Source: a bacterium | Lineage (GTDB): Bacteria; Electryoneota; RPQS01 | Reading direction: 5' to 3' | DNA: 64,000 bases | NCBI GenBank assembly: GCA_023382385.1 | Contig: JAHDVH010000002.1 | Coordinates: 4,957 to 68,956 of the forward strand | Shown: positions 647 through 63,429 of the stretch, one piece after another | Layout of the letters: each line of letters opens with the position of its first letter | How positions within the stretch are numbered: position 1 is the stretch's first letter | Notes under the pieces: generated by a model | The model's database searches: none | Told to the model about the DNA's origin: nothing | What the model saw: only the letters and a program-made list of their open reading frames with translations | Translations under genes and position numbers: made by a program

Positions 647-1034
647 TAAGAAGATGTCTCTCGAGCAGCTAATTGCTATAGCATTTATCATTGAAGTGAA
701 AGCTCCTCCCCGCTGAATGACAGGATTCTCTCCTTACAGCGCGCATTCCATGCCCGATAACGCAGATGGGGCAACTATCGAGGCACCAATGAGCGCTCAA
801 ACGCCTTTGCGCGGGAATGCGCCTCGTTATTCTTACCGCCTGCGACCGTGATTTCAAACAGGATATGACAAAATACTGAAATATATAAGGTTATGCTGTG
901 ACTGGGAAATTTCTCGTACTTGCTCGCTTGAATCGTAGCGCTTGCTTTCAGCCGGTTTCAGATGCAAATTGTAGTCTGTTACTTGGCGAGAGGATATTAC
1001 GTCGTGCGTGGTATGAGGTGACTTGGGGTGTTTC

Positions 1035-4000: not shown

Positions 4001-4430
4001 CATCCAGAATCCCGAGTGGGTGGCAGGTACCGGACACAACTACTATCTCTCGCAGATTGCTGCGGGGGATTTGGTTAACTCGCCCTGCGTGAATGCCGGC
4101 GATCCTGCCGTGTTCCCGCCTGCCGGTACAACAAGGACGGACTATCTGAGTGACATCAACGCACCGGATCAGGGTTATCATGGACCTCAACTGCTGGGCT
4201 TCGCTCCCGCAATAAACAACCTGGCTATTCAATGTGTTGGGGATAGCATTCATCTGTATTGGAGCTATGAAAATTCAGGGATATTCTACATTAAGACTGA
4301 TTCGAGCTCTTCGGGTGCATTCCTCACAACAATCGCCGTCACTGCCGATACGACCGTTACCCTTCCGTACGCCGCACCCATTCATCCGACCCGGGCATTC
4401 TTTAGAATCGTTGCGGAATCCGCAGAGTAG
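1035..4430 (+). CDS. Large secreted right-handed parallel beta-helix repeat protein (pectin-lyase-fold/PbH1-type repeats) with a C-terminal FN3-like module
   Basis: The ATG at 1035 is followed by a Sec signal peptide (MMKLRICNWPAAAIVLLFFACKFAVA). There are dozens of ~22-25 aa repeats of the type NxxxxGGAIxxxxSxxxIxNCxFxxN. The protein shows an internal duplication (VRFTTDTLTNPAKWRGLSF near the N terminus and IRFTTDTLTNPGRWQGIRF in the middle). The C terminus resembles an FN3 strand pattern (LYWSY...FFRIVAES). Confidence 0.75.
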   Translation: MMKLRICNWPAAAIVLLFFACKFAVADSTFVAAGNVSGIWDAAGSPYVVQGNLIVQALDSLEIGNGVTVHFEGPYELRVLGYVAIQGLAGDSVRFTTDTLTNPAKWRGLSFINANDSSYIEYAIFENALANGATASDSLGGAIFAGSGSMVRIENSTFRFNRSSGEGGAVYFANSTLLMDSCFFQNNLSDRDGGALFIRSSAASIVTQTVFQRNRAARSGGGLFVRGGTPQFTSCVFDSNLTGVNGTVQLQLSEARFDSCLLTNNIANLHGGGFSCEQSSPRIYDCVIQNNSTNSFDGGGVYLWESSPHMLRCQVLGNSSADDGGGIHSYREQSNGLFEQCEIRGNSAAGEGAGVWVTLDGAPSFVDCIISQNTAGTHGGGVFLRNNARPSFVNCNIDSNLAHGDGGGISIRQSLPVLVECSFRQNTAYESGGGVQLWEAADAVLDGCVISNNSASLPGGGIAANQSKLTATNCIVVRNNAASGAGGVAVQVAANVNIAHATIAANSGRGVSVESGLANIENSIIAHSGAEAVYFSAAANSRITYSTISGMIEFASGNSDQGPAWIGVPVAVNGNGDSCDTYFNVFSDPMFTDTTGGDWSLSTGSAAVGSGNWLSVTTDQIGNDRPFPAGTLPDMGALESELGQAPTGLFGTLSGMIGPGEVKVVADVLVDYLDTLRIAAGTNITFCGPSGLLVLGELHARGSLTDSIRFTTDTLTNPGRWQGIRFEGNSSASVLEYTEVSDASAIVLGRRQEGGGLRIAGVSPTVSRSLFARLSALRGGGVYCTGTSTPSFTACNFVSCKADSGGVFYVKSGAAPVLDRCNLSGGYARAGGGYLGEGSSGSIRNSRIEGNAAITAGAGIFLTTSSTILENNLLLSNSSAGDGGAIWLSGSSAQVKFCSIAGNSATNGAGVYIRFGTPQINNSIIADNIGGGIYFYVASLSSVRYNCVASNSGGNFVLFANSPTQGPAGIGILDSVNANGDPCDRHYNHIQNPEWVAGTGHNYYLSQIAAGDLVNSPCVNAGDPAVFPPAGTTRTDYLSDINAPDQGYHGPQLLGFAPAINNLAIQCVGDSIHLYWSYENSGIFYIKTDSSSSGAFLTTIAVTADTTVTLPYAAPIHPTRAFFRIVAESAE

Positions 4431-4602
4431 CAATGTTTCATGCAACGATCAACCAGCCCTCAGAACCTCTTAATCGCATGTCTCAAAATCACTGTCGCGC
4501 TTAGCAACTCTTTGGACACATTTATGCTAAGTCACTTCACCCTCAATATAAAGCAAGATGACTCCATCTTGGCTCGGTGTTTTCGATAACTTAGGACGGA
4601 AT

Positions 4603-42099: not shown

Positions 42100-42130
42100 A
42101 AAGGCCGAGTACAGACTCGGCCTTTTCATT
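42100..42130 (+). terminator. Rho-independent terminator
   Basis: Hairpin aaaggccgagt-acag-actcggccttt followed by a T-rich run, immediately downstream of the S8 gene. Confidence 0.6.
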
Positions 42131-42525
42131 TCCCTCTTTTCGCGGGACAGGCGAGCCGTCCTGACCTGCCTTCCAGAGCAAACCTCAAAACGTCTCTTCC
42201 AGCTTGAGAACAAAACTTGACCTCTCCTCTCCGATTTAACGGGTCCGGAGCGTTGCACATTATCTCCTTTTTCAGTTTAGAATAGTAGAAACAGTAATTT
42301 AATTTTTATATTGTTCATGAGGATTTCGCTCTTTTTCGTTGAAACCCGTTGCTCAGAGCATTGCTTGGAAGTAAATTGTGGTAGCGACTGGTCCTCCTCC
42401 CTGCATTGCGCCCGCCCCATTCGTCCCTTCTCCTACCGCTTCTTGGTGTATTTGCGCCATGTGAATTCCGGCAGGGCTTTTTTGAATTTGAAATAAAGAT
42501 ATATAAGTCGATTAAGGGTGCCGAT

Positions 42526-44876
42526 ATGAGACACTTGCTTGCAATTCTGGTTGTAGCCGCGAACGCTCTCGCCATACCACAACTCATCAACTACCAAGGT
42601 CAACTTAACGGAACGGGCGGCATTCCACTGGACACAACAGTATCCATGACGATGCGACTATATGACGGGCCGGGGGGAGCTGCGACCCTGTTGTGGACAG
42701 AAGCACATCCCGCAGTTGCAGTACAAGGCGGCCTGTTTGACCTCACCCTCGGTTCTATTACCGCTCTAAACCTTAGCCTGATGAACAACACGGAAGTCTG
42801 GCTCGGTGTAACCATTGGAAATGATTCGGAAATGACTCCGCGTGAGCGCATCGTTGCGGTTGGCTACAGTTTCCGAGTTGGCACTGTGGATGGAGCAAGC
42901 GGCGGGAGTGTCACAAGCGACCTAATTGTCACAGGTCGCGGGACGTTTGGAAGCGGAAACACAAACTCGGGAACGAATGGCTTTGTTGCCGGTGGTTCCA
43001 ACTCCGCTTCCCAACAATATACGGTTATCAGCGGTGGTTCCGAGAATGCAATCAGCAGTCAATGGAGCACCATTTCCGGTGGCAGACTTAATAGTGTGAC
43101 CGGAAACTGGGGAGCTATAGGTGGCGGTTTGTCGAACAGTGTTTCCGCCCCGTATGGCACTATCGCAGGCGGTCAGGACAATCTTGCAGGCGCAAACAAC
43201 GCTGCGGTCGGTGGCGGACGCAACAATTATGCACGTGGATTGCAAAGCGTCGTTGCAGGCGGAGGTGGGCTTGCGGCGGATTCAAACAGTGCGCAAGGAG
43301 CAGCCAGCACCATCAGCGGCGGGTTGCGTAATCTCGCCATAGGAACGCAAGCAACTGTTGCGGCGGACGGAACAACAAGGCACGCGGAAACTATTCCACG
43401 ATATCTGGTGGCGGCGGATCGGTCGCAGCTGACTCTAATAGTGCCCAAGGGACTGCAAGCACAATAGGCGGCGGCGTGAGAAACGTAGCCTCACAGGCAA
43501 ACTCCGCAGTCGGTGGCGGTGCAAACAATTCTGCACTCGGTTCGCATTCCACGATAAGCGGTGGTGAGTTCAACTATACGACCGGTTCTCACTCTTTTAT
43601 CGGTAGTGGCTTCTCAAACACGGTGTCGGATTCCTTCGCGACAATCGCAGGCGGAACTTTGAATTACGCTCCGGGGAAGTATTCAACTGTAGCAGGGGGA
43701 TATGGCAACGACGCCCGTTCAACGGGTTCAACGATTGCCGGAGGATATTCGAATGAAATTGGAGACACAAGTTTCTACGGCGCGATTGGCGGCGGCCAGG
43801 AGAACGCTACTGGAGCGCGACATGCGACCGTTGGCGGCGGATGGCAGAACTCTGCCAGTGGCGTTTGGAGTACAGCCGGCGGAGGCAGACAGAACTCTGC
43901 CAGTGGCGCGTTAAGTACCATCGGTGGAGGCGGAGAGAACCAGGCCCAGGGATTACTCTCATTTGTGGGCGGAGGAAGCAATAATACTGCGGGGAACTTC
44001 TCAACTGTTGGGGGTGGCAGCAGTAATGTTGCAGGGCCAACTTCGTTTGTTGGAGGAGGATCCACGAATGTTGCATCGGGCTATGTGAGCGTCATTACAG
44101 GTGGATTTCGCAACCAGGCAATGGGGGACTATTCGACAGTGAGTGGCGGCGACAGCAACATAGCGGCCGGAACTAATGCAACAGTGGGCGGAGGACTACA
44201 GAACAAGGCGCGAGGCAATTACTCCGTCGTGTCGGGAGGCGGCGGGATCGCAATCGATTCGAACTTGGCGAGCGGAAACTACAGCGTTGTGGCTGGAGGA
44301 CGGCGCAACGAAGCAGGTGGAATCGAGAGTTTTGTTGCTGGAGGGTATCGCAATCGTGCCTCAGGTGCAACATCTTTCGCTGCAGGTGGTCAGGCCAACG
44401 CAAGTCACAATGAGTCGTTCGTTTGGTCAAGCGGCGGCGCGACAAACTCTACAGGTAACGGAACAGTGACCATGCGTGCAACAGGAGGTTACACGTTCTA
44501 TTCGGCCGGAGGTAACACGGGAGCAACGCTCCCTGCCAATCAATCGGCATGGGTGTCAATCAGTGACTCGACACTGAAGCACCGTTACGGCCAAGTGGAA
44601 ACGAGCGATGTTTTGACGAAACTCGCAAACCTGCCTGTCGAAACGTGGAGCTACAAGCACGACGAGCACAACATTCTTCACATGGGTCCTATGGCGCAGG
44701 ACTTCCGGAACGCCTTTGGATTGGGCAATGACGATACGGGAATCTCCACGATAGACGCAGATGGCGTATTGTTCGCCGCTGTACAGGAACTGGCGAAAGA
44801 AAATGCGGGACTCAAGGAGCGCGTTGCCGACCTTGAAAAACTCGTGCAGCAGATGATTCTACTTGGACAGAAGTAA
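42526..44876 (+). pseudogene. Fibre-like secreted protein paralog 1 (Hep_Hag/YadA-head-like Gly-rich repeats plus C-terminal S74 intramolecular chaperone domain), interrupted by a 1-bp frameshift near 43365
   Basis: The ATG at 42526 is followed by signal peptide MRHLLAILVVAANALA and the conserved IPQLINYQGQL N-domain. The first reading frame ends at 43467 with a non-repeat tail. The +2 frame continues the repeat pattern (GGRNNKARGNYSTISGGGGSVAADSNSAQG) straight into the 43476..44876 ORF. One G appears to be missing in gcgg-cggacgg when compared with the repeat consensus. The C terminus carries SDSTLKHRYG...HMGPMAQDF...IDADGVLFAAVQEL. Confidence 0.55.
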
Positions 44877-44901
44877 CTACTAGCTCGTCGAAAAGGAGAC
44901 T

Positions 44902-47310
44902 ATGATGAAGCATTATCTCATTCTACTCATTCTCGCTGCGAATGCCCTTGCGATTCCACAGCTAATCAACTATCAAGGCCAATTAACTTCGCCAAGTGGC
45001 ATTCCGCTCGATACGACTGTTGTGATGACATTCCGCCTCTACGGAACAGAAAGCGGCGGTACGGCGATATGGATGGAGACACATCCGGCGGTAGCGGTGT
45101 CCGATGGTCATTTCAACGTGCTGCTCGGATCGGTGACAGCACTTCTTGACTCATTCTCGATAGACCGTTGGCTGGGTATCACGATAGGAGCAGACACTGA
45201 AATGAGTCCGCGCCAGCAAATCGTTTCTGTTGCGCATGCCTATCGCGTGGGAACGGTCGATGGAGCGAGCGGCGGAACCATTATCGGTGACGTGATCGGC
45301 ACGGGCAAGGGAACCTTTGGTTCGCAGAGTATCGCATCGGGAGTTGGTGCAACGGTTTCAGGTGGTTCAGGAAACATCGCCAGCGGAAACTACTCAACTA
45401 CCAGCGGAGGACAAGACTGCGCTGCCAGCGCACAACATGCTACAGTCTCTGGCGGTCGCGGAAACTTCGCGCGCGGCGTGAGAAGTGGCATTCTCAGCGG
45501 AGGCGGATTGGCCTCAGATTCTAATAGTGTTCAGGGAATCGCCAGTGCAATCGTCGCAGGCTCGGGTAATCTGGTAACCAGTGACTATGCGCTGATCGGC
45601 GGGGGGAGAAACAATCGCGCGCGCGGTATCTTCAGCGTGGTAGCGGGCGGAGGTGGAACCACAGCTGCGGACTCCAACGCGGCCGTAAGTAGTTATGCGA
45701 CAGTTGGCGGAGGAACAAGAAACTTCGCAGCGGGTGTGGGTTCGACAGTTGGAGGAGGAACTGGCAACATTTCATCCGGTGGAAACACGAGCGTGGCGGG
45801 TGGACAGAACAATATTGCAACTTCACAGGGTGCCGCCATCGGTGGAGGGTATAATAATCGCGCACGTTCGAACTATGCTTTCGTCGGCGGAGGTGGTGGT
45901 GCGCTGGAGGCGGACTCCAATAGCGCACACGGGCCTTACAGTGTTATAGCTGGCGGGCGCGGTAACTTCACCAATGGCGCAACTGCGGTCATAGGAGGTG
46001 GTTTTGACAATGAAGCTCTCAATAACAATACGGTGATTGCCGGCGGATCTGCAAACACTGTTCAGAGTGATGGAGGCGCGATTCTTGGTGGCCTGTCTAA
46101 TATCGTTGCGGCTCAATACTCCGTTGTTGCCGGGGGGCGCAACAATCGAGCGCGCGGCAGCTATAGCTTCATCGGTGGTGGTGGTGGAGTCAGCCTCGCA
46201 GATTCCAATTCCGTGCAACAATTTGCCAATAACAGCGTGGTAGTCGGCGGTGCCAGAAATTCAGTTGGTAGTGCGAACTCTTGCGTAGTTGCAGGCTTTG
46301 CGAACAGCGTTACAGGTACCTCGTCCGGTATCTTAGGTGGCCAAAGCAACAGCGTGACCGCAGATTATTCTGTGATTGCAGGTGGGAATGCGAATTCGAA
46401 TACGACCTTCTATAGTTTTATTGGCGCAGGACGCAACAACGTCAGCCGCGGCCAGTATAGCGTAATCGGAGGTGGCGGAGGAGTTACTGCCGCAGACTCC
46501 AATGCAACGTCCGCGAACTTTAGCGCTATCTTAGGCGGCTCGCGCAATTTCACATCGGGGCTCTATTCAGCAATCGGCGGCGGTTACCAGAATTCAGCCT
46601 CAGGCTATGCCGCTCATGTTGCAGGCGGCTTCAATAGTTCTGCCAGTGGCGACTCTTCCTGTGTGGGTGGCGGTTCAGGAAATTCGGCGTCAGGAATTGC
46701 TTCCGTCATCGGAGGCGGTTACAGCAATAGTGCGAGCGGTTTTGCAGCAACTATTCCCGGTGGATATGACTGCACCGCGAGCGCACGCTATTCGTTCGCG
46801 GCAGGAAGACGGGCGATTGCCAATGACGTTGGAGCATTCGTCTGGGCCGACTCGACCAATTCATCCTTTCTCTCACCTGGCGTAAACACCTTTAGCGTGC
46901 GTGCCAGCGGTGGAACATTTATCTATTCAAACAGCGCACTGTCTGCAGGCGTCTCGCTTGCCCCCGGCACAGGCTCTTGGGCATCCGTTTCGGATTCTGC
47001 GCTAAAGGAAAACTTCCGCAACATCAAAACGGAGGAGATTCTCGACAAAGTCTCCTCCTTGCGAATTCGTGAATGGAACTACATTGCGCAGGAAGACTCC
47101 ATCCGCCACATGGGACCGATGGCACAGGACATGTACGCTCAGTTCCGGTTGGGTGGCAGCGAAAAGACAATTGAAACCATTGACGCCGATGGCGTATTGT
47201 TCGCCGCGGTGCAGGAATTGGCGAAGCGCAGCGCGAAGCAGGCAGAAGAGATTGCCGAACTCAAGCAGCTTGTGAGTCAGCTAATTCAATTCGGTCACAA
47301 ACCGGAATAA
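44902..47310 (+). CDS. Fibre-like secreted protein paralog 2: conserved N-domain, ~15-residue Gly/Ser/Asn-rich beta-roll-like repeats, C-terminal peptidase-S74 (endosialidase/tail-fibre intramolecular chaperone) domain
   Basis: AAGGAG ribosome-binding site before the ATG. Signal peptide MMKHYLILLILAANALA. N-domain IPQLINYQGQLTSPSG...RWLGITIGADTEMSPRQQIVSVAHAYRVGTVDGASGGTI. More than 30 repeats of the type YSVIAGGxxNxAxGx. C-terminal SDSALKENFRNI (Ser-x4-Lys dyad), HMGPMAQD, IDADGVLFAAVQELAK and a final coiled-coil-like stretch. Confidence 0.8.
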   Translation: MMKHYLILLILAANALAIPQLINYQGQLTSPSGIPLDTTVVMTFRLYGTESGGTAIWMETHPAVAVSDGHFNVLLGSVTALLDSFSIDRWLGITIGADTEMSPRQQIVSVAHAYRVGTVDGASGGTIIGDVIGTGKGTFGSQSIASGVGATVSGGSGNIASGNYSTTSGGQDCAASAQHATVSGGRGNFARGVRSGILSGGGLASDSNSVQGIASAIVAGSGNLVTSDYALIGGGRNNRARGIFSVVAGGGGTTAADSNAAVSSYATVGGGTRNFAAGVGSTVGGGTGNISSGGNTSVAGGQNNIATSQGAAIGGGYNNRARSNYAFVGGGGGALEADSNSAHGPYSVIAGGRGNFTNGATAVIGGGFDNEALNNNTVIAGGSANTVQSDGGAILGGLSNIVAAQYSVVAGGRNNRARGSYSFIGGGGGVSLADSNSVQQFANNSVVVGGARNSVGSANSCVVAGFANSVTGTSSGILGGQSNSVTADYSVIAGGNANSNTTFYSFIGAGRNNVSRGQYSVIGGGGGVTAADSNATSANFSAILGGSRNFTSGLYSAIGGGYQNSASGYAAHVAGGFNSSASGDSSCVGGGSGNSASGIASVIGGGYSNSASGFAATIPGGYDCTASARYSFAAGRRAIANDVGAFVWADSTNSSFLSPGVNTFSVRASGGTFIYSNSALSAGVSLAPGTGSWASVSDSALKENFRNIKTEEILDKVSSLRIREWNYIAQEDSIRHMGPMAQDMYAQFRLGGSEKTIETIDADGVLFAAVQELAKRSAKQAEEIAELKQLVSQLIQFGHKPE

Positions 47311-47322
47311 CATTGGGTAGAC

Positions 47323-49746
47323 ATGATGAAGAAACTCCTCTTTACGCTTTTCCTCGCCACTCAAGCCTGGGCGATTCCACAACTTATCAACTATCAAGGT
47401 CAACTTACGTCGTCTTCCGGGTCGCCATTGGATACGACAGTGGTCATGACCTTTCGTTTGTATAGTGCAGCCAGTGGCGGCACGGCGGGCTGGACAGAAA
47501 CTCATCCGAGTGTTGCAGTCACGGGCGGCTTGTTTCATGTCTTGCTCGGTTCAGTAGTAACGTTACCCGATTCCTTTGCAGTCAATCGTTGGCTGGGCAT
47601 CACGATTGGAGCAGACACGGAGATGAGTCCGCGCCAGCAAGTCGTCTCTGTTGCGCATGCGTATCGCGTGGGAACGGTCGATGGAGCGAGCGGCGGAACC
47701 ATAACTGGTAATTTGAATGTTGCCGGCAAAGGAAACATCGGCTCCGGAAATTCAAATTCGGGCAATCAGGCGTTTGTTGCGGGGCAGAACAACAGTGCCT
47801 CTGGAAACCACTCCGTCGTGAGCGGCGGTTCGGCGAATACTGCCACAGGACCCGGCTCTTCAGTGGGCGGCGGCACCAGCAATACGGTGGAAGGCGGTTG
47901 GGCTGTGATTGGCGGCGGCGATTCAAACGTCGGACAGGGAGTCTGGTCGGTCGTGGCCGGTGGATTCGAGAATACCGCGTCAGAAGTATCAAGCGTAGTC
48001 AGTGGCGGCAGTGGAAACCACGCTAACGGCGAATGGAGCGTTGTTGGTGGCGGCAGCGCCAATCGCGCGGATAGCATTGCGATTGTCGGCGGTGGACTCA
48101 GTAATCTTGCCGCAGGTCCCTACTCCTTTGTGGGCGGCGGCTACATCAACAGAGCATCAGGGCGCTCCAGCACGGTCGGCGGAGGGCAAGAGAACCAGGC
48201 CGCAGGAATCTTCAGTACTGCTGCTGGAGGAGACAGCAACAACGTTTACGGAGCGTTCGGCTTCAACGGTGGCGGCCAGCTGAATGCGGTGGCAGATTCG
48301 TTCGCCGCACTCGCCGGAGGGCGGCATAATCGCGCAAGGGGCAAGTACAGCTTCGTTGGTGGAGGTGGTGGACCAACGCTGTCCGATTCAAACAGCGCAC
48401 GCGGGAGTTGGTCGGCGATTGTCGGGGGAAGCGGCAACAACGTGTCGCAGAACTATGGTTTCATCGGTTCAGGACAAGCCAACATTGTGACGGCGTCACA
48501 TTCGGCGATTCTTGGAGGAAACTTCAATCAAGCCACCGCGGTCCGATCTGGCATAGTTGGAGGAGACAGCAATATCGTCAGCGGCCAAGAGAGCTTCGTC
48601 GGCGGAGGCAACCTGAACCTTGCTCGAGGCGCCAGAAATTCAATTGTCGGGGGACAAAACAACTCCTTGAGTTCCATTTCAGAAGCATCGTTTATTGGTG
48701 GAGGTAATGGGAATTACATAGACTCGTATTATTCAGTCATCGCCGGTGGTGACAGTAACATCGTGGACCTTGGAGGTACTTACGGCTTTATCGGCACAGG
48801 GAAATCAAACTATGTGGGGGGGAATAGAGGTGGTATTGTCTCGGGTTTCGACAACACCGTAACATTTGGTTCTTCCAACTCATTTGTTGGAGGTGGTTCC
48901 GGCAACAGGGTCGAATCGCCGAATTCTGTAATTTGCGGTGGAGTGGGTAATATCGTTGACGGCGCGATTGGCACATCCTTTATCGGCAGCGGCACGTCAA
49001 ATAGTGTTCTCACGAACGGTTCCGCAATCGCCGGCGGATATAGCAATACTATTACTGGCGCTGGCGGCGCAATTTGCGCTGGATACCAGAATGTTGTGTC
49101 AGGCAGCTATGGATTTGTAGGCAGCGGCTTGTCTAATGTTGTAAGTGGATCCTCTGCTGTTGTGCCTGGAGGGACCGCAAATGAGGCCTCAACGTCCAAT
49201 TCATTTGCAGCAGGCCAAAACGCGCGCGCCAGACACTCCAACAGTTTTGTTTGGGGAAGCTCCGGAACTGACAGTACAGTCTCTGTGAGCACAGGATCTT
49301 TTGTCGCTCGCGCATCCGGCGGCGCACGATTTTACTCAGAATCCACTGGAACATCGGCGGGAGTAACTTTAGCCGCTGGCGGCGGCGCATGGAACTCGAT
49401 TTCTGATTCAACAGTGAAGCGGCGTCTTGGCCAAGTCAACACGGCGGAAATACTGTCAAGAGTCATTGAGCTTCCAATTGAGCGTTGGAGCTATTTGTCT
49501 CAGCCTGAAGACATTCAACATATCGGACCAATGGCACAGGACTTTCATGCCGCTTTTGGTGTGGGTGACGATGAAAGAACGATTTCTACGCTTGATCCTG
49601 ACGGCGTCGCACTGGCGGCGATACAGGAACTGGCAAAACTCAATCAACAAAAGGACGCTAAGATCTCCGACCTTGAAGGTCGCATCAGAATGCTCGAAGA
49701 GGCGATTCTGCAATTTGGCAATCTTGGTCAAACAGATAAGCAGTAA
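47323..49746 (+). CDS. Fibre-like secreted protein paralog 3 (same architecture as paralog 2, S74 C-terminal domain)
   Basis: Signal peptide MMKKLLFTLFLATQAWA. IPQLINYQGQLTSSSG N-domain with a ~100-nt near-identical stretch to paralog 2. Gly-rich ~15-aa repeats. C-terminal SDSTVKRRLGQV...HIGPMAQDF...LDPDGVALAAIQELAK. Confidence 0.8.
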   Translation: MMKKLLFTLFLATQAWAIPQLINYQGQLTSSSGSPLDTTVVMTFRLYSAASGGTAGWTETHPSVAVTGGLFHVLLGSVVTLPDSFAVNRWLGITIGADTEMSPRQQVVSVAHAYRVGTVDGASGGTITGNLNVAGKGNIGSGNSNSGNQAFVAGQNNSASGNHSVVSGGSANTATGPGSSVGGGTSNTVEGGWAVIGGGDSNVGQGVWSVVAGGFENTASEVSSVVSGGSGNHANGEWSVVGGGSANRADSIAIVGGGLSNLAAGPYSFVGGGYINRASGRSSTVGGGQENQAAGIFSTAAGGDSNNVYGAFGFNGGGQLNAVADSFAALAGGRHNRARGKYSFVGGGGGPTLSDSNSARGSWSAIVGGSGNNVSQNYGFIGSGQANIVTASHSAILGGNFNQATAVRSGIVGGDSNIVSGQESFVGGGNLNLARGARNSIVGGQNNSLSSISEASFIGGGNGNYIDSYYSVIAGGDSNIVDLGGTYGFIGTGKSNYVGGNRGGIVSGFDNTVTFGSSNSFVGGGSGNRVESPNSVICGGVGNIVDGAIGTSFIGSGTSNSVLTNGSAIAGGYSNTITGAGGAICAGYQNVVSGSYGFVGSGLSNVVSGSSAVVPGGTANEASTSNSFAAGQNARARHSNSFVWGSSGTDSTVSVSTGSFVARASGGARFYSESTGTSAGVTLAAGGGAWNSISDSTVKRRLGQVNTAEILSRVIELPIERWSYLSQPEDIQHIGPMAQDFHAAFGVGDDERTISTLDPDGVALAAIQELAKLNQQKDAKISDLEGRIRMLEEAILQFGNLGQTDKQ

Positions 49747-49757
49747 GGATACAAACA

Positions 49758-50219
49758 ATGAACAAAACTCTTCTGTTACTCCTCCTCCCTGCCTTACTAT
49801 TGGCACAGTCAGAGAGCGAGAATTTCGTCTTGACAAAGTCTGTGGTCAACGCTGGCGGCGGCGGCGCAAGTTCCGCGAATTTCAATCTCGTTTCTTCGTT
49901 CGGCCAGCCGACGCCGGTAGGTGTGCAATCGAGCGAGAACTTCACGCTCTTTGCAGGTTTCCTGTCGCCGACTCTGTCGGTCTCACCCCTGTCGCCGATT
50001 CAACAATTGGTGATCAGGCAGGCACAACCGGACGCCGTACTCTACTGGGAAGAAATTCCCGGAGCAACCAGCTATTCTGTGCATCGCGACGCAGCTTATA
50101 ACTTTTCCCCCGGCCCGGGGAACTTCGTCGGAACCGTTACAGGTACGTCGTTCACAGACACAAATGTGCTGTCAGGGCCGGCCATCCAGCAGTACTACAT
50201 AGTCATCGTGAACAGGTAG
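49758..50219 (+). CDS. Small secreted protein with triple SxNFxL motif and C-terminal FN3-like module; last gene of the fibre operon
   Basis: Signal peptide MNKTLLLLLLPALLLAQS. Three repeats of the motif: SENFVLTKS..., SANFNLVSSFGQP..., SENFTLFAGF. C terminus VLYWEEIPGATSYSVHR...QQYYIVIVNR. Only 12 nt separate it from paralog 3. Confidence 0.6.
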   Translation: MNKTLLLLLLPALLLAQSESENFVLTKSVVNAGGGGASSANFNLVSSFGQPTPVGVQSSENFTLFAGFLSPTLSVSPLSPIQQLVIRQAQPDAVLYWEEIPGATSYSVHRDAAYNFSPGPGNFVGTVTGTSFTDTNVLSGPAIQQYYIVIVNR

Positions 50220-50276
50220 CTAAACCATTGACGGTCGAACTCGAAAGCTTGTCGTCACAATTAGAACCAAATGCAA

Positions 50277-50303
50277 GGGCTGCCCGCGAGGCAGCCCTTT
50301 TCA
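50277..50303 (+). terminator. Rho-independent terminator closing the fibre operon
   Basis: Hairpin gggctgcc-cgcga-ggcagccc followed by TTTTCAAC. Confidence 0.6.
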
Positions 50304-53537: not shown

Positions 53538-54314
53538 CTAATTCCCCGTAAACTTCGCGGTTCGTTTCTCGATAAAGGCCTTCATACCTTCCTTCTGGTC
53601 TTCTGTGGAAAACAGCAGGTAGAAATTCTTGCGCTCGAACTCCAAACCGTCGAGCAGGAAAGATTCATAATTCTTCAGCACGGCCTCTTTCGCCAAGCGC
53701 ACGGCAACGGGCGACATCTGCGCGATCTCGCGCGCGAGTTTTTGTGCTTCGGACAGATACACTTCGACAGGCACAACACGATTGACAAGCCCCCACGCTT
53801 CGGCCTGCTTCGCGCTGATGAACTTTCCGGTCAACACCATCTCCATTGCCCGCGCCTTGCCGATGATGCGCGTGAGTCTCTGCGTGCCGCCTGCGCCGGG
53901 CATGACGCCAATCTTGATCTCCGGCTGTCCGAACTGCGCAGTCTCACTTGCAATGACCATATCGCAGTGCATCATCAATTCGCAGCCTCCGCCCAGTGCG
54001 AAACCCGACACCGCCGCGATGATCGGCTTCTTGACCTTGCGGATTCTATCCCATTTGGCGAATTGATCGCGGCGCAGCATTTCAGTTGAGTCAGCGTCGG
54101 CCATTTCCATGATGTCGGCTCCGGCCGCAAACGCGCGCTGGTCTCCGGTCAATACTATCGCGCGAATCTCGTCGTCGCTGTCGAGCGTTTCAAGCGTGGC
54201 CACCAGTTCGTCCATCAGCGCCATGTTAAGCGCATTAAGCTGCTTCGGGCGATTCAGAAAGACTGTGGCAACGTGTCCGTCGCGCTCGAGTTTGAGAAAC
54301 TGCAAGTCACTCAT
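53538..54314 (-). CDS. Enoyl-CoA hydratase (crotonase) family protein
   Basis: VFLNRPKQLNALN and AAVSGFALGGGCELMMHCDMVIAS crotonase signatures. 1-nt intergenic gap to the downstream crotonase. Confidence 0.8.
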   Translation of the reverse strand: MSDLQFLKLERDGHVATVFLNRPKQLNALNMALMDELVATLETLDSDDEIRAIVLTGDQRAFAAGADIMEMADADSTEMLRRDQFAKWDRIRKVKKPIIAAVSGFALGGGCELMMHCDMVIASETAQFGQPEIKIGVMPGAGGTQRLTRIIGKARAMEMVLTGKFISAKQAEAWGLVNRVVPVEVYLSEAQKLAREIAQMSPVAVRLAKEAVLKNYESFLLDGLEFERKNFYLLFSTEDQKEGMKAFIEKRTAKFTGN

Positions 54315-54317
54315 GGT

Positions 54318-55163
54318 CTATTTTCTTACCAATCTTTCCCGTACCATTTTGTAATCCGGCTTGCGTTTTTCATTGAATGCTGTTACCGCCTCGCGGACTT
54401 CAGGGGAGCTGGAGTGAACACCGAGCCAGTCGCGTGCGTGCTGAATCGTCTGCGACCACGACGCGTCGCGCCAGTAGTTAAGCTGCGTCTTAAGATAACG
54501 CACGCACTCCGGCAACTTGTTCTCGAGCTTCGTTGCCATTTCCTCAACTGCCTGGTCAAGCTGTGCGCGCGGCACAACCTGATTGACGAGTCCCCATTCG
54601 AGCGCCTTCTGTGCAGGAATCTCTTCGCACAGGAACAGGATCTCCCGCGCGCGACGATCTCCGACGATTATCGGCAGGAATTGCGATGCACCCGCCGCAG
54701 CAACTGATCCGTGAGCCGCGCCAACCTGCCGAATATAGATATCTTCCGCCGCGATCGCAAGATCACAGCTGATATTGAACTCATTGCCGCCACCGACCAC
54801 GATGCCGTTTAACCGTGCGATGGTAGGTTTGCCCAGCGCGCGCAATTTCTCATGAGCGTCAATGAACGCTCCCATCCATTTCCAGTAGTCCTGCGGGCGG
54901 TCGAGAAATTGCAGTTGCTCCTGCAGGTCAGCTCCGGTGCAAAAGGCACGGTCGCCCGCGCCGGAAAGAATCATCACCGCGACTGCGTCATCAAATGCCA
55001 CGTCGTCAAACGCCACGCAAAGCTCTTTCAGCATCGGGTAGTGCACGCAGTTCAGCTTTTCTGGTCGGTTAAACGTCACGTAGGCGCGCGCGCCTTTCTT
55101 CTCATACGTGATGTAATCAAACTTGAAACTCTCCGCAGGGCGTGGCTGAAAGTCCTTTGTCAT
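54318..55163 (-). CDS. Crotonase superfamily protein, MenB/BadI-like (possible ring-cleaving or hydrolytic CoA enzyme)
   Basis: YVTFNRPEKLNCV and ARLNGIVVGGGNEFNISCDLAIAAE motifs. About 280 aa with extra N- and C-terminal segments relative to short crotonases. Confidence 0.7.
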   Translation of the reverse strand: MTKDFQPRPAESFKFDYITYEKKGARAYVTFNRPEKLNCVHYPMLKELCVAFDDVAFDDAVAVMILSGAGDRAFCTGADLQEQLQFLDRPQDYWKWMGAFIDAHEKLRALGKPTIARLNGIVVGGGNEFNISCDLAIAAEDIYIRQVGAAHGSVAAAGASQFLPIIVGDRRAREILFLCEEIPAQKALEWGLVNQVVPRAQLDQAVEEMATKLENKLPECVRYLKTQLNYWRDASWSQTIQHARDWLGVHSSSPEVREAVTAFNEKRKPDYKMVRERLVRK

Positions 55164-55468
55164 GCGCGCGGATCCGTTTCCGCCGTCTGAAACTCGACGA
55201 GTCCCTGGGCAAAGCTCATCAGATTCGCGCCCGCATCCGCCATCTCCTGCGATTTCATGCCCGCCTTGAACGTGTCCTTGTCCGCAAACGAGAGCACCGC
55301 CATCATGTAGTATGGCGCGGGGCCGTTCTTGCCCGGCCAGAATTTATGCGCCTGCAAGCCGAGCAAACCCGGCACTTTCTTGATGAGCGGGATATGTGTT
55401 TCCCAATACGCTTTGTCGAACGCATCGGCATCCTGCGGATGCTTGTAAAAGGCAATGAAATTGACCAT
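55160..55468 (-). CDS. EthD-family/dimeric alpha+beta-barrel small protein (TIGR02118-like)
   Basis: 102 aa. Pattern MVNFIAFYKHP...AFDKAYWETHIPLIKKVPGL typical of the EthD/stress-responsive alpha+beta-barrel family. Overlaps the crotonase gene by 4 nt. Confidence 0.5.
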   Translation of the reverse strand: MVNFIAFYKHPQDADAFDKAYWETHIPLIKKVPGLLGLQAHKFWPGKNGPAPYYMMAVLSFADKDTFKAGMKSQEMADAGANLMSFAQGLVEFQTAETDPRA

Positions 55469-55498
55469 GTCTCTGTTTTTCTATTCTCAATTCGTTGT

Positions 55499-55954
55499 TT
55501 ACTTTTTCAGTTCCCACAGATGGTCCTCAATCCCCCATCCTCCGGCACCGGAACCCCAATCAGGATAAGCACGACGATGAAGCTCTTTGAGTTTGTCGCT
55601 GGACAACACGACCTGATGAACCTCACCCTCACCGATCAGTCGTTCGCCTTGAAACGCTTTCACTTCACAAAAGAGATAGTTCCCGTGCAAGCGCGTGCAC
55701 TCTGCGACGAAGCGCAATTCCTGTCCGATTCCCGCAGGATTGTGGTGGCGGACAAAGACACCTGTGCCGATGCCGTCTTCTCCGTAGTCAAGATGCGGTT
55801 CAAGTACGAGCCGGCTGACATATTCCGAGTGATAGGTCAACCAATAGGTCGAATAGAAGGGGTGCAAGGGCCGTCCTTCGAAATAGACGGTCATTCGCGA
55901 TTCGACCATGAACCGGAATTCAGCGCGGCTGCCGACGGTAAGAGTTGGTTTCAA
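55499..55954 (-). CDS. Hotdog-fold thioesterase family protein
   Basis: About 150 aa. Pattern VGSRAEFRFMV...TVYFEGRPL...FYSTYWLTYHSEYVSR consistent with hotdog acyl-CoA thioesterases. First gene of the minus-strand operon. Confidence 0.5.
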   Translation of the reverse strand: MKPTLTVGSRAEFRFMVESRMTVYFEGRPLHPFYSTYWLTYHSEYVSRLVLEPHLDYGEDGIGTGVFVRHHNPAGIGQELRFVAECTRLHGNYLFCEVKAFQGERLIGEGEVHQVVLSSDKLKELHRRAYPDWGSGAGGWGIEDHLWELKK

Positions 55955-56102
55955 CGGAGCTTACAGGGTGTGTTGGCGGGATAACTCAAGCTGTTGAGTA
56001 TAGCGTATTTTGGCAACTTTTGCAACTCTGTCACACTCGAGGAGCTTGACAATTTCGGACTGCGAACATAGATTTCTGGCAACTTATCGCACGGAGGAAA
56101 GC

Positions 56103-62004: not shown

Positions 62005-63429
62005 TTATTCACATGTAACAAAATACACGCGCATCCCGTCGGCGGGCAGGGGCAGCACGGTGCTGGTTGCGGGTGTGGTGGCCTCGATGGTGTAGTCCTG
62101 CGGCGCGGAGTTCATGTCGTTGCTCGACCATATCTTATACTGTGTCGCGCCAGCGACGGGGTGCCAACGCAAGTAGAGCGAGTCCTCTGCAAACGACATC
62201 ACCAGAGATCCCGGCGCGTCGAGACCGTTCTCGAATTCATCGTACAAGGCCGCGAGCAATTCGCCGTCGCGATCCGCCGCAAGCTCCCAGAACATCGCGC
62301 CTCCGAGCAATTCACTCAAAACATAGCGCGCCTTCTCGCGAATGGACGCCGTGTCGTCATAACTGATCATCACGTGCGACGCCGGATTGTACAGCCACGG
62401 CACGCGCGAAGCGTCACTCCAGTATCGCGTGTAGCCGTTTAGGTTGACGTAGTTCTCCTTGAGCTGCCAATAGTCGAACATCCCGTTTTCCCACGTGCCG
62501 AACGGGGACACGCCGGAAAAGGACGCGTATAGCCCGTTATTCACGTTCGCGACGTTGCCGAAACCGCGCCCGTAAAACGCCATCCCCGCCGAAAGTTTCT
62601 CGCGCGGAAATCCGCCAGCTATGTAGGCTTGCATCGCCGCGTCGAGATTTGCGGACGTGTGCGCTGGTTCGGGAAACGGATCGAGCGAATCGGCGTAAAG
62701 CGGCGAGTTGAATCCCGTGAACGGACTCCATGGCCCTTGAAAATCGTAGGTCATCACGTTGATAAAATCAACGGCTTGGGCAAGCTGCGGCAACTCAAGA
62801 TTTGCCACATGATCAAGTCCCGCCGATGTCGCGAGTGTGAGCAGATACGGCCGCCCGTATAGTGTTTCGAGCGAATCAAGTTTGGCCCGGATACGCTGAC
62901 AGAGCAGCGTGAGGTTCGCGCCGTCTTCCGGGCGATGCTCGACGTCCCAATCCCCGCCGAACACGGGATACTCCCAGTCGAGATCCACGCCGTCGAAGCC
63001 GTGCTCAATGACGAATTGTGCACACGAATTGGCGAACAGCTCTCGTGCTGCAGGCGTCGCGGCGGCGTCAGAGAAATTTTCACTCCATGTCCAACCGCCG
63101 ACCGAAATCAATGTTCGCAAATGCGGGTGCTGCTCTTTCAGAAGTCTCAATTGGTGAAAGTTCCCGCGCTCACAGCCGGGATCCCAGCAATCGCCGGGAT
63201 AGAAACGGTCAATATCGGCGTACGCGTCGCCGAGCACAACTTGACCGCCGCTGATATTCGCGAACGCGTAGTTGATGTGCGTGAGCTGCTCGGCGGGAAT
63301 ATCCGTGACAAAATAGCTGCGCGCGTAAATCGCCCATGACGGATAGTAGCCGACGATGCGCTGCGCCTCTGCAATCATAGGAACCAGCAAACACGCAACG
63401 AGCAGATATCTATTCAGGTGTAACCGCAC
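62005..63429 (-). CDS. Secreted GH18 chitinase with C-terminal FN3-like module
   Basis: Signal peptide MRLHLNRYLLVACLLVPMIAEA. GH18 catalytic motif FDGVDLDWEYP (DxxDxDxE). C terminus LYLRWHPVAGATQYKIWSS...RVYFVTCE. Confidence 0.85.
   Translation of the reverse strand: MRLHLNRYLLVACLLVPMIAEAQRIVGYYPSWAIYARSYFVTDIPAEQLTHINYAFANISGGQVVLGDAYADIDRFYPGDCWDPGCERGNFHQLRLLKEQHPHLRTLISVGGWTWSENFSDAAATPAARELFANSCAQFVIEHGFDGVDLDWEYPVFGGDWDVEHRPEDGANLTLLCQRIRAKLDSLETLYGRPYLLTLATSAGLDHVANLELPQLAQAVDFINVMTYDFQGPWSPFTGFNSPLYADSLDPFPEPAHTSANLDAAMQAYIAGGFPREKLSAGMAFYGRGFGNVANVNNGLYASFSGVSPFGTWENGMFDYWQLKENYVNLNGYTRYWSDASRVPWLYNPASHVMISYDDTASIREKARYVLSELLGGAMFWELAADRDGELLAALYDEFENGLDAPGSLVMSFAEDSLYLRWHPVAGATQYKIWSSNDMNSAPQDYTIEATTPATSTVLPLPADGMRVYFVTCE

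What the first reader, a model, noticed from the sequence alone, without database searches (positions are those of the whole stretch)
42526..50219. Operon of three tandem paralogous secreted fibre-like proteins with phage-type S74 intramolecular chaperone domains, in a non-phage context
Three consecutive genes (42526..44876, 44902..47310, 47323..49746) encode ~800-aa proteins with the same architecture, in this order:
- a Sec signal peptide;
- a conserved ~110-aa N-domain beginning IPQLINYQGQL;
- 30 or more copies of a ~15-residue Gly/Ser/Asn-rich repeat (xYSxIxGGxxNxAxG), reminiscent of YadA-head/Hep_Hag left-handed beta-roll repeats of trimeric adhesins;
- a C-terminal domain with every hallmark of the endosialidase/tail-fibre intramolecular chaperone (peptidase S74). 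These are SD[ST]xxK, where the Ser and a Lys five residues later match the Ser911/Lys916 autoproteolytic dyad of phage K1F endosialidase; HMGPMAQD; IDxDGVxxAAxQELAK; and a terminal amphipathic helix.

Intergenic gaps are only 12-25 nt. A fourth small secreted gene follows, and terminators bracket the unit at 42100 and 50277.

There are no capsid, terminase, baseplate or integrase genes within 20 kb on either side. The neighbours are T9SS cargo proteases and housekeeping operons. This therefore looks like a chromosomal cell-surface trimeric fibre/adhesin system that has co-opted the phage tail-fibre maturation chaperone, rather than a prophage remnant.

The shared N-domain directly after the signal peptide could be the anchoring/trimerisation module. 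Its function and the cellular target of the fibres are unknown.
Basis: partly seen in the sequence, partly recalled or inferred. Interest (0 to 1): 0.8.

Follow-up and report, generated by a model that had tools for sequence, protein, structure and literature searches.

The report
Secreted MAT-type cell-surface fibre gene array
Three tandem genes encode secreted fibre proteins that use a phage-type self-cleaving folding domain; they belong to a bacterial surface-fibre family described in 2024 in the predator Bdellovibrio, so the fibres are not new, but the small partner gene that ends the array is uncharacterised.

Summary
Three tandem paralogs (46-47% identical) each have a Sec signal peptide, a conserved N-domain, about 34 fifteen-residue Gly/Ser/Asn repeats and a C-terminal Peptidase_S74 domain with an invariant SDxxxK. 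Gene 1 is not intact: a 1-nt deletion near 43360 splits it.

The non-phage reading is supported. The 64-kb window has no phage genes, tRNAs or integrase. The array sits in the same chromosomal slot in related genomes, with 3 to 7 fibre genes. Only the S74 module matches phage genomes.

The architecture is already known. It matches the 'mosaic adhesive trimer' (MAT) fibres of Bdellovibrio (Caulton 2024), where S74 self-cleavage and surface location were shown. That paper already lists FCB-group members. The N-domain hits NCBIfam Bdello_MAT_N below cutoff, in 42 of 44 relatives. Its superfamily has about 81,600 clusters at 50% identity. The repeats resemble the UspA1 trimeric-adhesin head.

One part is uncharacterised. 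The fourth gene (153 aa) is a conserved terminal partner of these arrays. It has three SxNFxL repeats plus an FN3-like domain and no family assignment. It is a candidate for the unknown base or anchor of MAT fibres.

Verdict: new member of a known kind; interest moderate.

The parts
42104..42134 (+). Hairpin plus T-run (AAAGGCCGAG-TACAGA-CTCGGCCTTTT). Likely terminator of the upstream S8 protease gene. It marks the 5' boundary of the unit.
   Evidence: Read directly from the sequence. The consensus scan did not flag it.
42526..44876 (+). Fibre gene F1, disrupted. The N-part ORF is 42526..43467 and the C-part ORF is 43476..44876, in another frame. The restored protein is 783 aa. Signal peptide 42526..42573; catalytic Ser codon 44562..44564; Lys codon 44577..44579.
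   Evidence: Pfam S74 at 32 bits in the C-part.
43354..43370 (+). Site of the 1-nt deletion in F1 (ACTGTTG^CGGCGGACGG; the paralogs imply GTT GGC GGC GGA). There is no slippery heptamer.
   Evidence: Three-frame translation. Restoring one G gives an open reading frame collinear with F2 and F3.
44902..47310 (+). Fibre gene F2 (802 aa), intact. Signal peptide 44902..44952; N-domain 44953..45279; 15-residue repeats 45280..46821; tip 46822..46989; S74 46990..47307.
44953..45279 (+). MAT_N-like N-domain of F2 (residues 18-126). Predicted beta-sandwich, and the most conserved part of the fibres.
45280..46821 (+). Stalk of F2. About 34 repeats of 15 residues (xxSxIxGGxxNxAxG), interrupted by a recurring unit of about 36 residues (GGGRNNRARGxYSxxGGGGGxxxADSNSAxG).
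   Evidence: Autocorrelation peak at offset 15. UspA1 head 3pr7 at E 1.6e-13 and L. perenne ice-binding beta-roll 3ult at E 0.012.
46990..47307 (+). Peptidase_S74 intramolecular chaperone of F2. Predicted cleavage at Ser697 (46990..46992) with Lys702 (47005..47007), followed by a C-terminal helix.
   Evidence: PF13884 at 40.2 bits, HMM position 1 at residue 697. Ser and Lys invariant in alignment A4. Aligns with the MYRF S74 domain 7dc3. Phage S74 hits start at residue 697.
47323..49746 (+). Fibre gene F3 (807 aa), intact. Signal peptide 47323..47373; Ser694 codon 49402..49404; Lys699 codon 49417..49419.
49758..50219 (+). p4, a conserved 153-aa secreted partner that ends the array. Signal peptide 49758..49805. 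p4N module 49806..49997 (three SxNFxL repeats plus GQPTP). FN3-like domain 49998..50216.
50275..50299 (.). 11-bp GC-rich hairpin between the convergent p4 and NmrA-like genes. It marks the 3' boundary of the unit.

Best explanation
The locus is a chromosomal, copy-number-variable array of MAT-type ('mosaic adhesive trimer') cell-surface fibre genes, in a Calditrichota-like FCB-group bacterium.

Proposed mechanism:
1. Each fibre protein is exported by Sec and its signal peptide is cut before IPQLINYQG. The peptide is shown by sequence; its export and cleavage are inferred.
2. The C-terminal S74 domains of three chains associate and template folding of the stalk. The stalk is built of 15-residue beta-roll repeats like the UspA1/YadA head. 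This step is inferred from the S74 literature and the repeat match.
3. The Ser/Lys dyad (S697/K702 in F2, S694/K699 in F3) then cuts off the chaperone of about 105 residues and exposes the variable tip. The motif is shown; cleavage is inferred from Bd3182, K1F endosialidase and MYRF.
4. The conserved N-terminal beta-sandwich forms the cell-proximal base. The variable stalk and tip bind an external ligand such as a glycan, another cell or a particle. This step is inferred.
5. The conserved small secreted protein p4 ends each array and most likely works with the conserved base of the fibres in anchoring or assembly. Only the genetic linkage is shown.

F1 is disrupted here, either as a recent pseudogene or through a sequence error.
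For: Architecture and S74:
- establish the domain order, the repeat period and the conserved dyad.

MAT link:
- NF053851 Bdello_MAT_N hits F2 and F3 (E 7e-7 and 1.8e-6).
- It also hits 42 of 44 family N-domains (best E 1.4e-9).
- The published MAT definition is the same domain order. S74 self-cleavage at the SDxxxK Ser and surface location were shown experimentally. FCB-group members are listed in its Table S3 (PMC10769870).
- The N-domain is a confident beta-sandwich with no close PDB match. The MAT paper says the same of its N-domain.

Evidence for trimers:
- The stalk matches the trimeric UspA1 head.
- In other lineages the same N-domain is fused to collagen triple helix or to CBM96 tips, so the tips are mosaic.

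Not phage:
- No phage genes in the window. No tRNA or Rfam hit.
- Only S74 matches phage genomes. The N-domain was not found in IMG/VR.
- In relatives the slot S8 protease | fibres + p4 | NmrA-Aldedh-ECHx3 is conserved, with 7 fibres in one genome and 2+1 in another.

Family size:
- At least 4287 hits with the full protein.
- 81,582 clusters at 50% identity with the N-domain profile.
- Tandem arrays of 2-7 genes are common. They are also reported in Peredibacter (PMC13147790).

p4 linkage.
Against: - The match to the Bdellovibrio MAT_N model is below its curated cutoff (about 29 bits against 60). It covers only profile positions 14-79 of 162, so homology of the second half of the N-domain is unproven.
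- I could not compare with Bdellovibrio MAT models directly, because the AlphaFold-database library was unavailable.
- Trimerisation, autoproteolysis, outer-membrane passage and surface display are all untested here.
- No route across the outer membrane is evident. The proteins have no T9SS C-terminal domain and no autotransporter barrel.
- The adhesive target is unknown.
- The UspA1 match has high compositional bias.
- p4 is absent next to about half of the related loci that have enough downstream sequence (26 of 50 have it).
Confidence: 0.78

Rival explanations
1. A prophage, tailocin or extracellular contractile-injection-system remnant. On this reading the three genes are degenerate tail-fibre genes left after loss of the rest of the element.
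For: - The S74 domain is typical of phage tail fibres and spikes.
- F2 hits PHROG 1980 'tail fiber protein' (E 6e-8).
- Phage S74 domains are 37-40% identical to residues 697-789.
- NCBI names relatives 'tail fiber domain-containing protein'.
Against: - There are no capsid, terminase, tail, sheath, baseplate or integrase genes and no tRNA in 64 kb.
- Every copy has a Sec signal peptide, which virion proteins do not need.
- The N-domain and the repeats are absent from 50,697 phage genomes, and the N-domain from IMG/VR.
- The array occupies the same housekeeping slot in several genomes.
- GC content is not deviant.
Confidence: 0.03
2. Trimeric autotransporter adhesins (type Vc secretion), annotated with an unusual C-terminus.
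For: - The repeats match the UspA1 head (3pr7, E 1.6e-13).
- PF18792 UspA1_rep scores 28.1 bits against a cutoff of 27 in F1.
- JGI labels some relatives 'trimeric autotransporter adhesin'.
Against: - No YadA-anchor beta-barrel is present. The C-terminus is an S74 domain plus a helix.
- Polarity is reversed: the conserved, presumably cell-proximal module is N-terminal.
- The stalk is not a coiled coil.
Confidence: 0.02
3. Secreted S74-matured beta-roll proteins whose job is not adhesion. Examples would be a structural surface coat or matrix fibre, or an ice- or crystal-binding protein using the flat beta-roll faces.
For: - PF21300 LbR_Ice_bind (grass antifreeze beta-roll) is above its gathering score in F3 (32.3 against 30) and just below in the other copies.
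- The L. perenne ice-binding structure 3ult is hit at E 0.012.
- No ligand-binding tip domain is recognisable.
- Function is untested outside Bdellovibrio.
Against: - The similarity rests on a Gly/Ser/Asn-rich 7+8-residue repeat, so it may reflect the fold rather than the function.
- The variable-tip, conserved-base pattern and the copy-number variation look like receptor-binding proteins.
- Bdellovibrio MATs bind prey glycans (PMC10769870).
- Relatives occur in wastewater and sediment MAGs, not specifically in cold habitats.
Confidence: 0.12

Closest known systems
MAT (mosaic adhesive trimer) fibre proteins of Bdellovibrio bacteriovorus, S74 subgroup, e.g. Bd3182 (Caulton et al. 2024, PMC10769870; NCBIfam NF053851)
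   Same: - Same domain order: Sec signal peptide, conserved beta-rich N-domain directly after it, long repetitive fibre, then C-terminal S74 with SDxxxK.
- Many paralogs per genome, often adjacent.
- Mosaic tips across the family.
- N-domain without close PDB homologues.
- Chromosomal, not phage-borne.
   Different: - The N-domain matches the Bdellovibrio model only over its first half and below cutoff.
- The host is a Calditrichota-like FCB bacterium with no known predatory lifestyle.
- The stalk is a very regular 15-residue UspA1-like repeat.
- Arrays end in a conserved small gene (p4), which the papers I read do not mention for Bdellovibrio.
- Nothing here is tested experimentally.
Peptidase S74 / C-terminal intramolecular chaperone domain of phage K1F endosialidase, T5 L-shaped tail fibre, GA-1 neck appendage and eukaryotic MYRF (Pfam PF13884)
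   Same: - Ser-x4-Lys dyad at the start of the domain.
- HxGPxAQD and IDxDG(V/I)xxAAxQEL motifs and a terminal helix.
- Position at the extreme C-terminus of a beta-helical or beta-roll trimer.
   Different: - The upstream cargo is a secreted bacterial protein with a signal peptide, not a virion protein or a transcription factor.
- Sequence identity to phage domains is only 37-40%.
UspA1 / YadA-type head domains of trimeric autotransporter adhesins (PDB 3pr7, 3ntn)
   Same: Repeats of 14-16 residues, GGxxNxAxGxxSTIGGG-like, that build left-handed parallel beta-rolls packed as trimers.
   Different: - No coiled-coil stalk and no membrane-anchor barrel.
- Trimerisation is presumably driven by S74 instead.
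- Orientation relative to the cell is reversed.
PAAR / T4 gp5.4 caps on trimeric beta-helices (analogy for p4N only, recalled from general knowledge)
   Same: A single small chain with three internal repeats that could sit on the end of a homotrimer.
   Different: There is no sequence or fold evidence of relatedness. The analogy is purely conceptual and was not tested.

Membership tests
MAT fibre family (Caulton 2024) | Signal peptide immediately followed by a conserved beta-rich N-domain of about 130 aa | tested here: met
   - Signal peptides end ALA/AWA directly before IPQLINYQG.
- The N-domain model is an all-beta sandwich with pLDDT 89.
- In the family the domain starts at about residue 20-26.
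MAT fibre family (Caulton 2024) | N-domain homologous to the Bdellovibrio MAT N-domain (NCBIfam NF053851, cutoff 60 bits) | tested here: inconclusive
   - The hits are significant but below cutoff: 29.2 and 27.8 bits.
- 42 of 44 relatives hit, best E 1.4e-9, over profile positions 14-79 of 162 only.
- This supports superfamily-level homology, not membership of the Bdellovibrio subfamily.
- AFDB fold comparison was unavailable.
MAT fibre family (Caulton 2024) | C-terminal S74 domain with SDxxxK (S74 subgroup) | tested here: met
   PF13884 is above its gathering score in all three copies. The motifs are SDSTLK, SDSALK and SDSTVK.
MAT fibre family (Caulton 2024) | Homotrimeric fibre along its whole length | not testable with these tools
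   No multimer prediction is available. Indirect support comes from S74, UspA1-head-like repeats and collagen-fused relatives of the N-domain.
MAT fibre family (Caulton 2024) | Mosaic, exchangeable tip domains on a constant N-domain | tested here: met
   In other loci the N-domain is joined to S74, collagen, CBM96/disaggregatase or unassigned C-termini.
MAT fibre family (Caulton 2024) | Cell-surface location and role in binding other cells | not testable with these tools
   This needs microscopy or proteomics of the organism, which is uncultured.
Peptidase S74 (PF13884) | Profile match above the gathering score | tested here: met
   32.0, 40.2 and 23.8 bits against 22.
Peptidase S74 (PF13884) | Catalytic Ser and Lys five residues apart, conserved on alignment with bona fide S74 domains | tested here: met
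   - Ser26 and Lys31 are invariant in alignment A4.
- The profile aligns them with A/K of 'ADLRAK' in MYRF 7dc3. My reading, from memory of the MYRF literature, is that the Ala is an engineered replacement of the catalytic Ser.
- Phage S74 hits begin at residue 697.
- K1F endosialidase itself was not reached by sequence search.
Peptidase S74 (PF13884) | Autoproteolytic release of the chaperone after trimer folding | not testable with these tools
   Needs expression of wild type against the Ser-to-Ala mutant.
Trimeric autotransporter adhesin (type Vc) | C-terminal YadA-like membrane-anchor beta-barrel | tested here: not met
   No such Pfam or NCBIfam hit. The C-terminus is S74 plus a helix.
Trimeric autotransporter adhesin (type Vc) | YadA/UspA1-type head repeats | tested here: met
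   3pr7 at E 1.6e-13 and 3ntn at E 4e-4. UspA1_rep at 28.1 against 27 in F1. No Hep_Hag hit.
Prophage / tailocin / eCIS tail-fibre module | Neighbouring virion, tail or baseplate genes, or integration signatures | tested here: not met
   There are none in the 64-kb window and none in syntenic loci of relatives.
Grass-type ice-binding beta-roll (PF21300) | Profile match above the gathering score | tested here: inconclusive
   The match is above the cutoff only in F3 (32.3 against 30). F1 scores 20.5 and 27.7, and F2 has none. It probably reflects shared repeat geometry.

The most novel reading that the evidence does not exclude
p4 (49758..50219) may be the missing base component of MAT-type fibres. 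Its N-module has three SxNFxL repeats, is highly conserved, and is predicted as disordered when modelled alone. It could fold onto the N-terminal end of the fibre homotrimer as a single-chain, pseudo-threefold cap or adaptor. Its second module is FN3 here, dockerin repeats in Zixibacteria and Ignavibacteria, and a large protein in one locus. That module would tether the fibre to the cell envelope or to a scaffold. If so, this would identify the 'surface element' bound by the MAT N-domain, which Caulton et al. state is still unknown. It would also define a fibre-docking system spread across many phyla.
Probability: 0.2. Interest if true: 0.65.

Novelty: new member of a known kind. Interest (0 to 1): 0.4.

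Why it matters
- MAT fibres were described in 2024 as prey-recognition devices of predatory bacteria.
- This locus and its relatives show that the same design is very widespread. It combines a Sec signal, a constant N-domain, a beta-roll or beta-helix stalk and an S74 chaperone. The N-domain profile finds about 81,600 clusters at 50% identity.
- The design is expanded as tandem, copy-number-variable arrays in Calditrichota-like, Zixibacteria, Ignavibacteria and other uncultured lineages.
- This suggests that S74-matured fibres are a general bacterial surface-recognition system, not a predator speciality. Alternatively, contact-dependent lifestyles may be more common in these phyla than assumed.
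- The conserved partner gene p4 gives a concrete candidate for how such fibres are anchored or assembled, which is an open point in the MAT literature.

Tried and rejected
- Single-sequence search of the F2 C-terminus against PDB sequences gave only a spurious antibody hit. A family profile was needed, and it reached only MYRF, not K1F endosialidase.
- Foldseek against the AlphaFold database would have allowed direct comparison with Bdellovibrio MAT models, but the library was not installed.
- The 44-sequence N-domain alignment was too diverse for the locus finder. A tighter 8-sequence alignment worked.
- The window's own genome is not among the GTDB representatives. The closest N-domain match there is 81% identical. 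The protein collection holds no near-identical copy of F2 (best identity 51%).
- A near-identical Logan contig was found through p4 (99% identity), but it begins inside F3. It cannot settle whether the F1 frameshift is real.
- The closest relative (L001) also has a disrupted first gene, but through an in-frame stop at a different place. The disruption is therefore not conserved.
- Profile-profile comparison of p4N with the fibre N-domain and with S74 found nothing.
- p4N and the N-domain have no significant PDB sequence match. The hit to 9rce_H at E 0.51 is not significant.
- The p4N profile search of the large protein collection retrieved few candidates because the query is short.
- The weak p4 hit to the CPR pilus tip protein PamT (23 bits against a cutoff of 240) was followed into the preprint. 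It remains only a lead.
- I considered p4's FN3-like domain as a T9SS sorting domain. I dropped the idea: there is no Por_Secre_tail hit, and many homologs carry a tail after the domain.
- No evidence of recent gene conversion among the paralogs. The N-domain DNA is only 65% identical between F2 and F3.
Full report
**1. What is in the sequence**

The plus strand between 42.5 and 50.2 kb carries four closely packed genes.

- F2 (44902..47310, 802 aa) and F3 (47323..49746, 807 aa) are intact.
It reads as two ORFs in different frames: 42526..43467 and 43476..44876.
- Three-frame translation shows the reading frame jumps at ACTGTTG^CGGCGG, near 43360. Adding one G restores a 783-aa protein collinear with the other two.
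- The downstream frame has no further damage and there is no slippery heptamer. The break is therefore either a very recent pseudogenisation or a sequence error. A near-identical contig found through p4 starts inside F3 and cannot settle this.
- Gaps between the genes are 25, 12 and 11 nt.
- A hairpin with a T-run follows the upstream protease gene (42104..42134, read directly). A strong hairpin lies between the last gene and the convergent NmrA-like gene (50275..50299).

**2. Anatomy of the fibre proteins**

- The three proteins are 46-47% identical overall.
- Conservation is uneven: N-domain 61-83%, repeats 40-45%, the stretch before S74 30-49%, S74 42-52%.
- Each begins with a typical Sec signal peptide ending ALA or AWA. 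The mature chain then starts IPQLINYQGQL.
- The middle 510 residues or so have a 15-residue period. Self-identity peaks at offsets 15, 30 and 45 in all three.
- The repeat unit is xxSxIxGGxxNxAxG. A unit of about 36 residues recurs among the repeats.
- This region matches the head domain of the Moraxella trimeric adhesin UspA1 (PDB 3pr7, E 1.6e-13). It matches a grass ice-binding beta-roll more weakly. Pfam gives UspA1_rep and LbR_Ice_bind near threshold and no Hep_Hag.
- The C-terminal 105 residues or so match Pfam Peptidase_S74 above the gathering score in all three copies. The profile starts exactly on the Ser of SDSxxK.
- In an alignment of 23 diverse relatives the Ser and the Lys five residues later are invariant.
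- A profile of that alignment finds the S74 domain of MYRF (7dc3, E 7e-4). The two residues fall on the A and K of ADLRAK. From memory of the MYRF literature, I read that Ala as an engineered replacement of the catalytic Ser.

**3. Context: not a phage**

- I annotated all the large ORFs I took to be genes across the window with Pfam.
- They encode S8, M14, M3 and S9 peptidases, two proteins with T9SS sorting domains, the 2-oxoglutarate and branched-chain 2-oxoacid dehydrogenase complexes, enoyl-CoA hydratases, aldehyde dehydrogenase, a GH18 chitinase and similar functions.
- There is no phage structural gene, no integrase, no tRNA and no Rfam hit. GC content is even.
- Against 50,697 phage genomes, only residues 697-789 (S74) of F2 find a match, at 37-40% identity.
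- The N-domain has no PHROG hit. It was not found in IMG/VR viral contigs.
- The array occupies the same chromosomal slot in relatives: S8 protease | fibres + small gene | NmrA-like, aldehyde dehydrogenase, three enoyl-CoA hydratases.
  - A Calditrichaeota MAG has 7 fibre genes there.
  - A JGI metagenome contig has 2 fibre genes, the small gene and 1 more fibre gene.
- So this is a stable chromosomal locus whose fibre copy number varies.

**4. The family**

- The full-length search returned at least 4287 proteins at E <= 1e-5, none more than 51% identical.
- Almost all share the signal peptide, the [AI][IV]PQxINYQG start and S74.
- Where NCBI names them, they are 'tail fiber domain-containing protein' from Calditrichaeota, KSB1, Bacteroidota or unclassified MAGs.
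- A scan of GTDB species representatives gave 70 loci. They come from MAGs labelled Calditrichaeota, Zixibacteria, Ignavibacteria, Gemmatimonadota, Planctomycetota, Nitrospirota and others. Several closest ones carry a generic 'Alphaproteobacteria' label that I do not trust.
- Tandem arrays of 2-7 genes are common, and split copies are frequent.
- An N-domain profile finds 81,582 clusters at 50% identity at E <= 1e-3 and 43,193 at E <= 1e-10. The domain nearly always sits right after the signal peptide.
- In other lineages the same N-domain precedes collagen triple helix, CBM96 or unassigned C-termini.

**5. What it corresponds to**

- NCBIfam gave one hit for F2 and F3: NF053851, 'Bdello_MAT_N, mosaic adhesive trimer family chimeric fiber protein'. 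It covers residues 7-82 at E about 1e-6, but scores 29 bits against a cutoff of 60.
- Of 44 diverse N-domains from the family, 42 hit the same model, best E 1.4e-9, always over its first half.
- Caulton et al. 2024 (PMC10769870) define the MAT family of Bdellovibrio by exactly this architecture.
  - It has a signal peptide, a conserved beta-rich N-domain of about 130 aa and a long trimeric fibre.
  - In 13 of 21 members the fibre ends in an S74 domain with SDxxxK.
  - They show self-cleavage at the Ser (Bd3182 S782, blocked by S782A), a trimeric beta-helix crystal structure, surface location and a role in prey handling.
  - They state that the N-domain has no structural homologue in the PDB and presumably binds an unidentified surface element.
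  - Their Table S3 lists MAT proteins outside Bdellovibrio, including S74-like ones in the FCB group, Omnitrophica and the PVC group.
- Contiguous MAT gene clusters are reported in Peredibacter, where they were picked out by the same GenBank name (PMC13147790).
- I therefore file the fibres as members of the MAT-type superfamily, outside the Bdellovibrio subfamily model. They are not trimeric autotransporters, since they lack the anchor barrel. They are not phage remnants.

**6. The fourth gene**

- p4 (49758..50219, 153 aa) has a signal peptide and then a module of about 64 residues with three SxNFxL repeats: SENFVL..., SANFNL...GQPTPVG..., SENFTL..AGFLSP. An FN3-like domain follows.
- It has no Pfam family. 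It has 71 clusters of homologs, all annotated 'hypothetical'.
- Those homologs are 50-78% identical, apart from one 99% identical cluster. That is better conserved than the fibres.
- In more than 20 related loci a homolog lies within a few bases after the last fibre gene of an array. Two loci have one after each of two sub-arrays.
- Of 50 loci with at least 700 nt of sequence downstream of the last fibre gene, 26 have the N-module gene adjacent.
- In Zixibacteria, Ignavibacteria and Gemmatimonadota the N-module alone recurs next to fibre genes, including fibres without S74. There it is fused to dockerin repeats or, once, to a 1476-aa protein.
- It shows no similarity to the fibre domains and has no PDB sequence match.
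- The genetic linkage is shown. A role as adaptor, cap or anchor for the conserved fibre base is my inference.

**7. Mechanism and confidence**

*Shown:*
- the domain architecture;
- the conserved dyad;
- the non-phage, syntenic, copy-variable locus;
- superfamily-level similarity to the MAT N-domain;
- the linkage of p4 to the arrays.

*Inferred from the S74 and MAT literature:*
- Sec export;
- S74-templated trimerisation of a UspA1-like beta-roll stalk;
- autocleavage after ...GSWASV in F2;
- the N-domain at the cell-proximal end;
- a variable tip that binds a ligand.

*Unknown:*
- the route across the outer membrane;
- the ligand;
- whether the organism is predatory.

I put 0.78 on the MAT-type fibre explanation, 0.12 on a non-adhesive role for the same kind of protein, and a few percent on the phage-remnant and autotransporter readings.

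**8. Verdict**

The system is an instance of a family published in 2024, so the fibres rate as 'new member of a known kind'. The breadth of the N-domain superfamily and the conserved p4 partner are the parts worth following up.

Noticed in passing
window 4558..7134 (+), residues 787-855; window 62005..63429 (-), residues 409-456; L060, L020, L015, L004: The FN3-like domain of p4 recurs at the extreme C-terminus of large secreted enzymes. In the window these are an M14 carboxypeptidase (iE 1.3e-8) and, weakly, a GH18 chitinase. It also occurs in big proteins next to fibre arrays in relatives. It is not a Por_Secre_tail domain and could be a lineage-specific C-terminal module.
   Followed up: partly
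L040, L042, L043, L033, L039, L055, L059, L064 (p4N genes next to fibre genes); P0195, P0197: In Zixibacteria and Ignavibacteria the three-repeat SxN[FY]xL module of p4 is fused to dockerin type I repeats instead of FN3. In L053 it heads a 1476-aa protein.
   Followed up: partly
P0203-P0206, P0209: Some proteins carry three or four tandem copies of the fibre N-domain rather than a single copy after the signal peptide.
   Followed up: no
L069:9938-11632; L053:3111-7025: The same N-domain is fused to a collagen triple-helix repeat in one lineage and to a CBM96/disaggregatase-type C-terminus in another.
   Followed up: partly
[not shown]
   Followed up: no
window 55142..55984 (+): This 280-aa ORF has no family. 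In syntenic relatives the interval holds EthD and FlK-type genes on the minus strand. The plus-strand ORF is therefore probably spurious.
   Followed up: no
L073 19268..19516; L075 17504..17967: Relatives have a HicA/HicB toxin-antitoxin pair inserted among the three enoyl-CoA hydratase genes. The window has no such insertion: 53538..54314 and 54318..55163 abut.
   Followed up: no
window 49758..50219 against NCBIfam NF058579: p4 weakly resembles the predicted tip pilin PamT of a newly described CPR pilus (23 bits against a cutoff of 240). The preprint (10.64898/2026.03.03.709456) notes that a tail fibre-like protein co-localises with the pam operon.
   Followed up: partly
window 1023..4430 (+): This 1135-aa protein has right-handed beta-helix, NosD and Chlamydia PMP repeats. 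It is another large putative surface protein in a window rich in secreted peptidases (S8 x2, M14, M3, S9).
   Followed up: no
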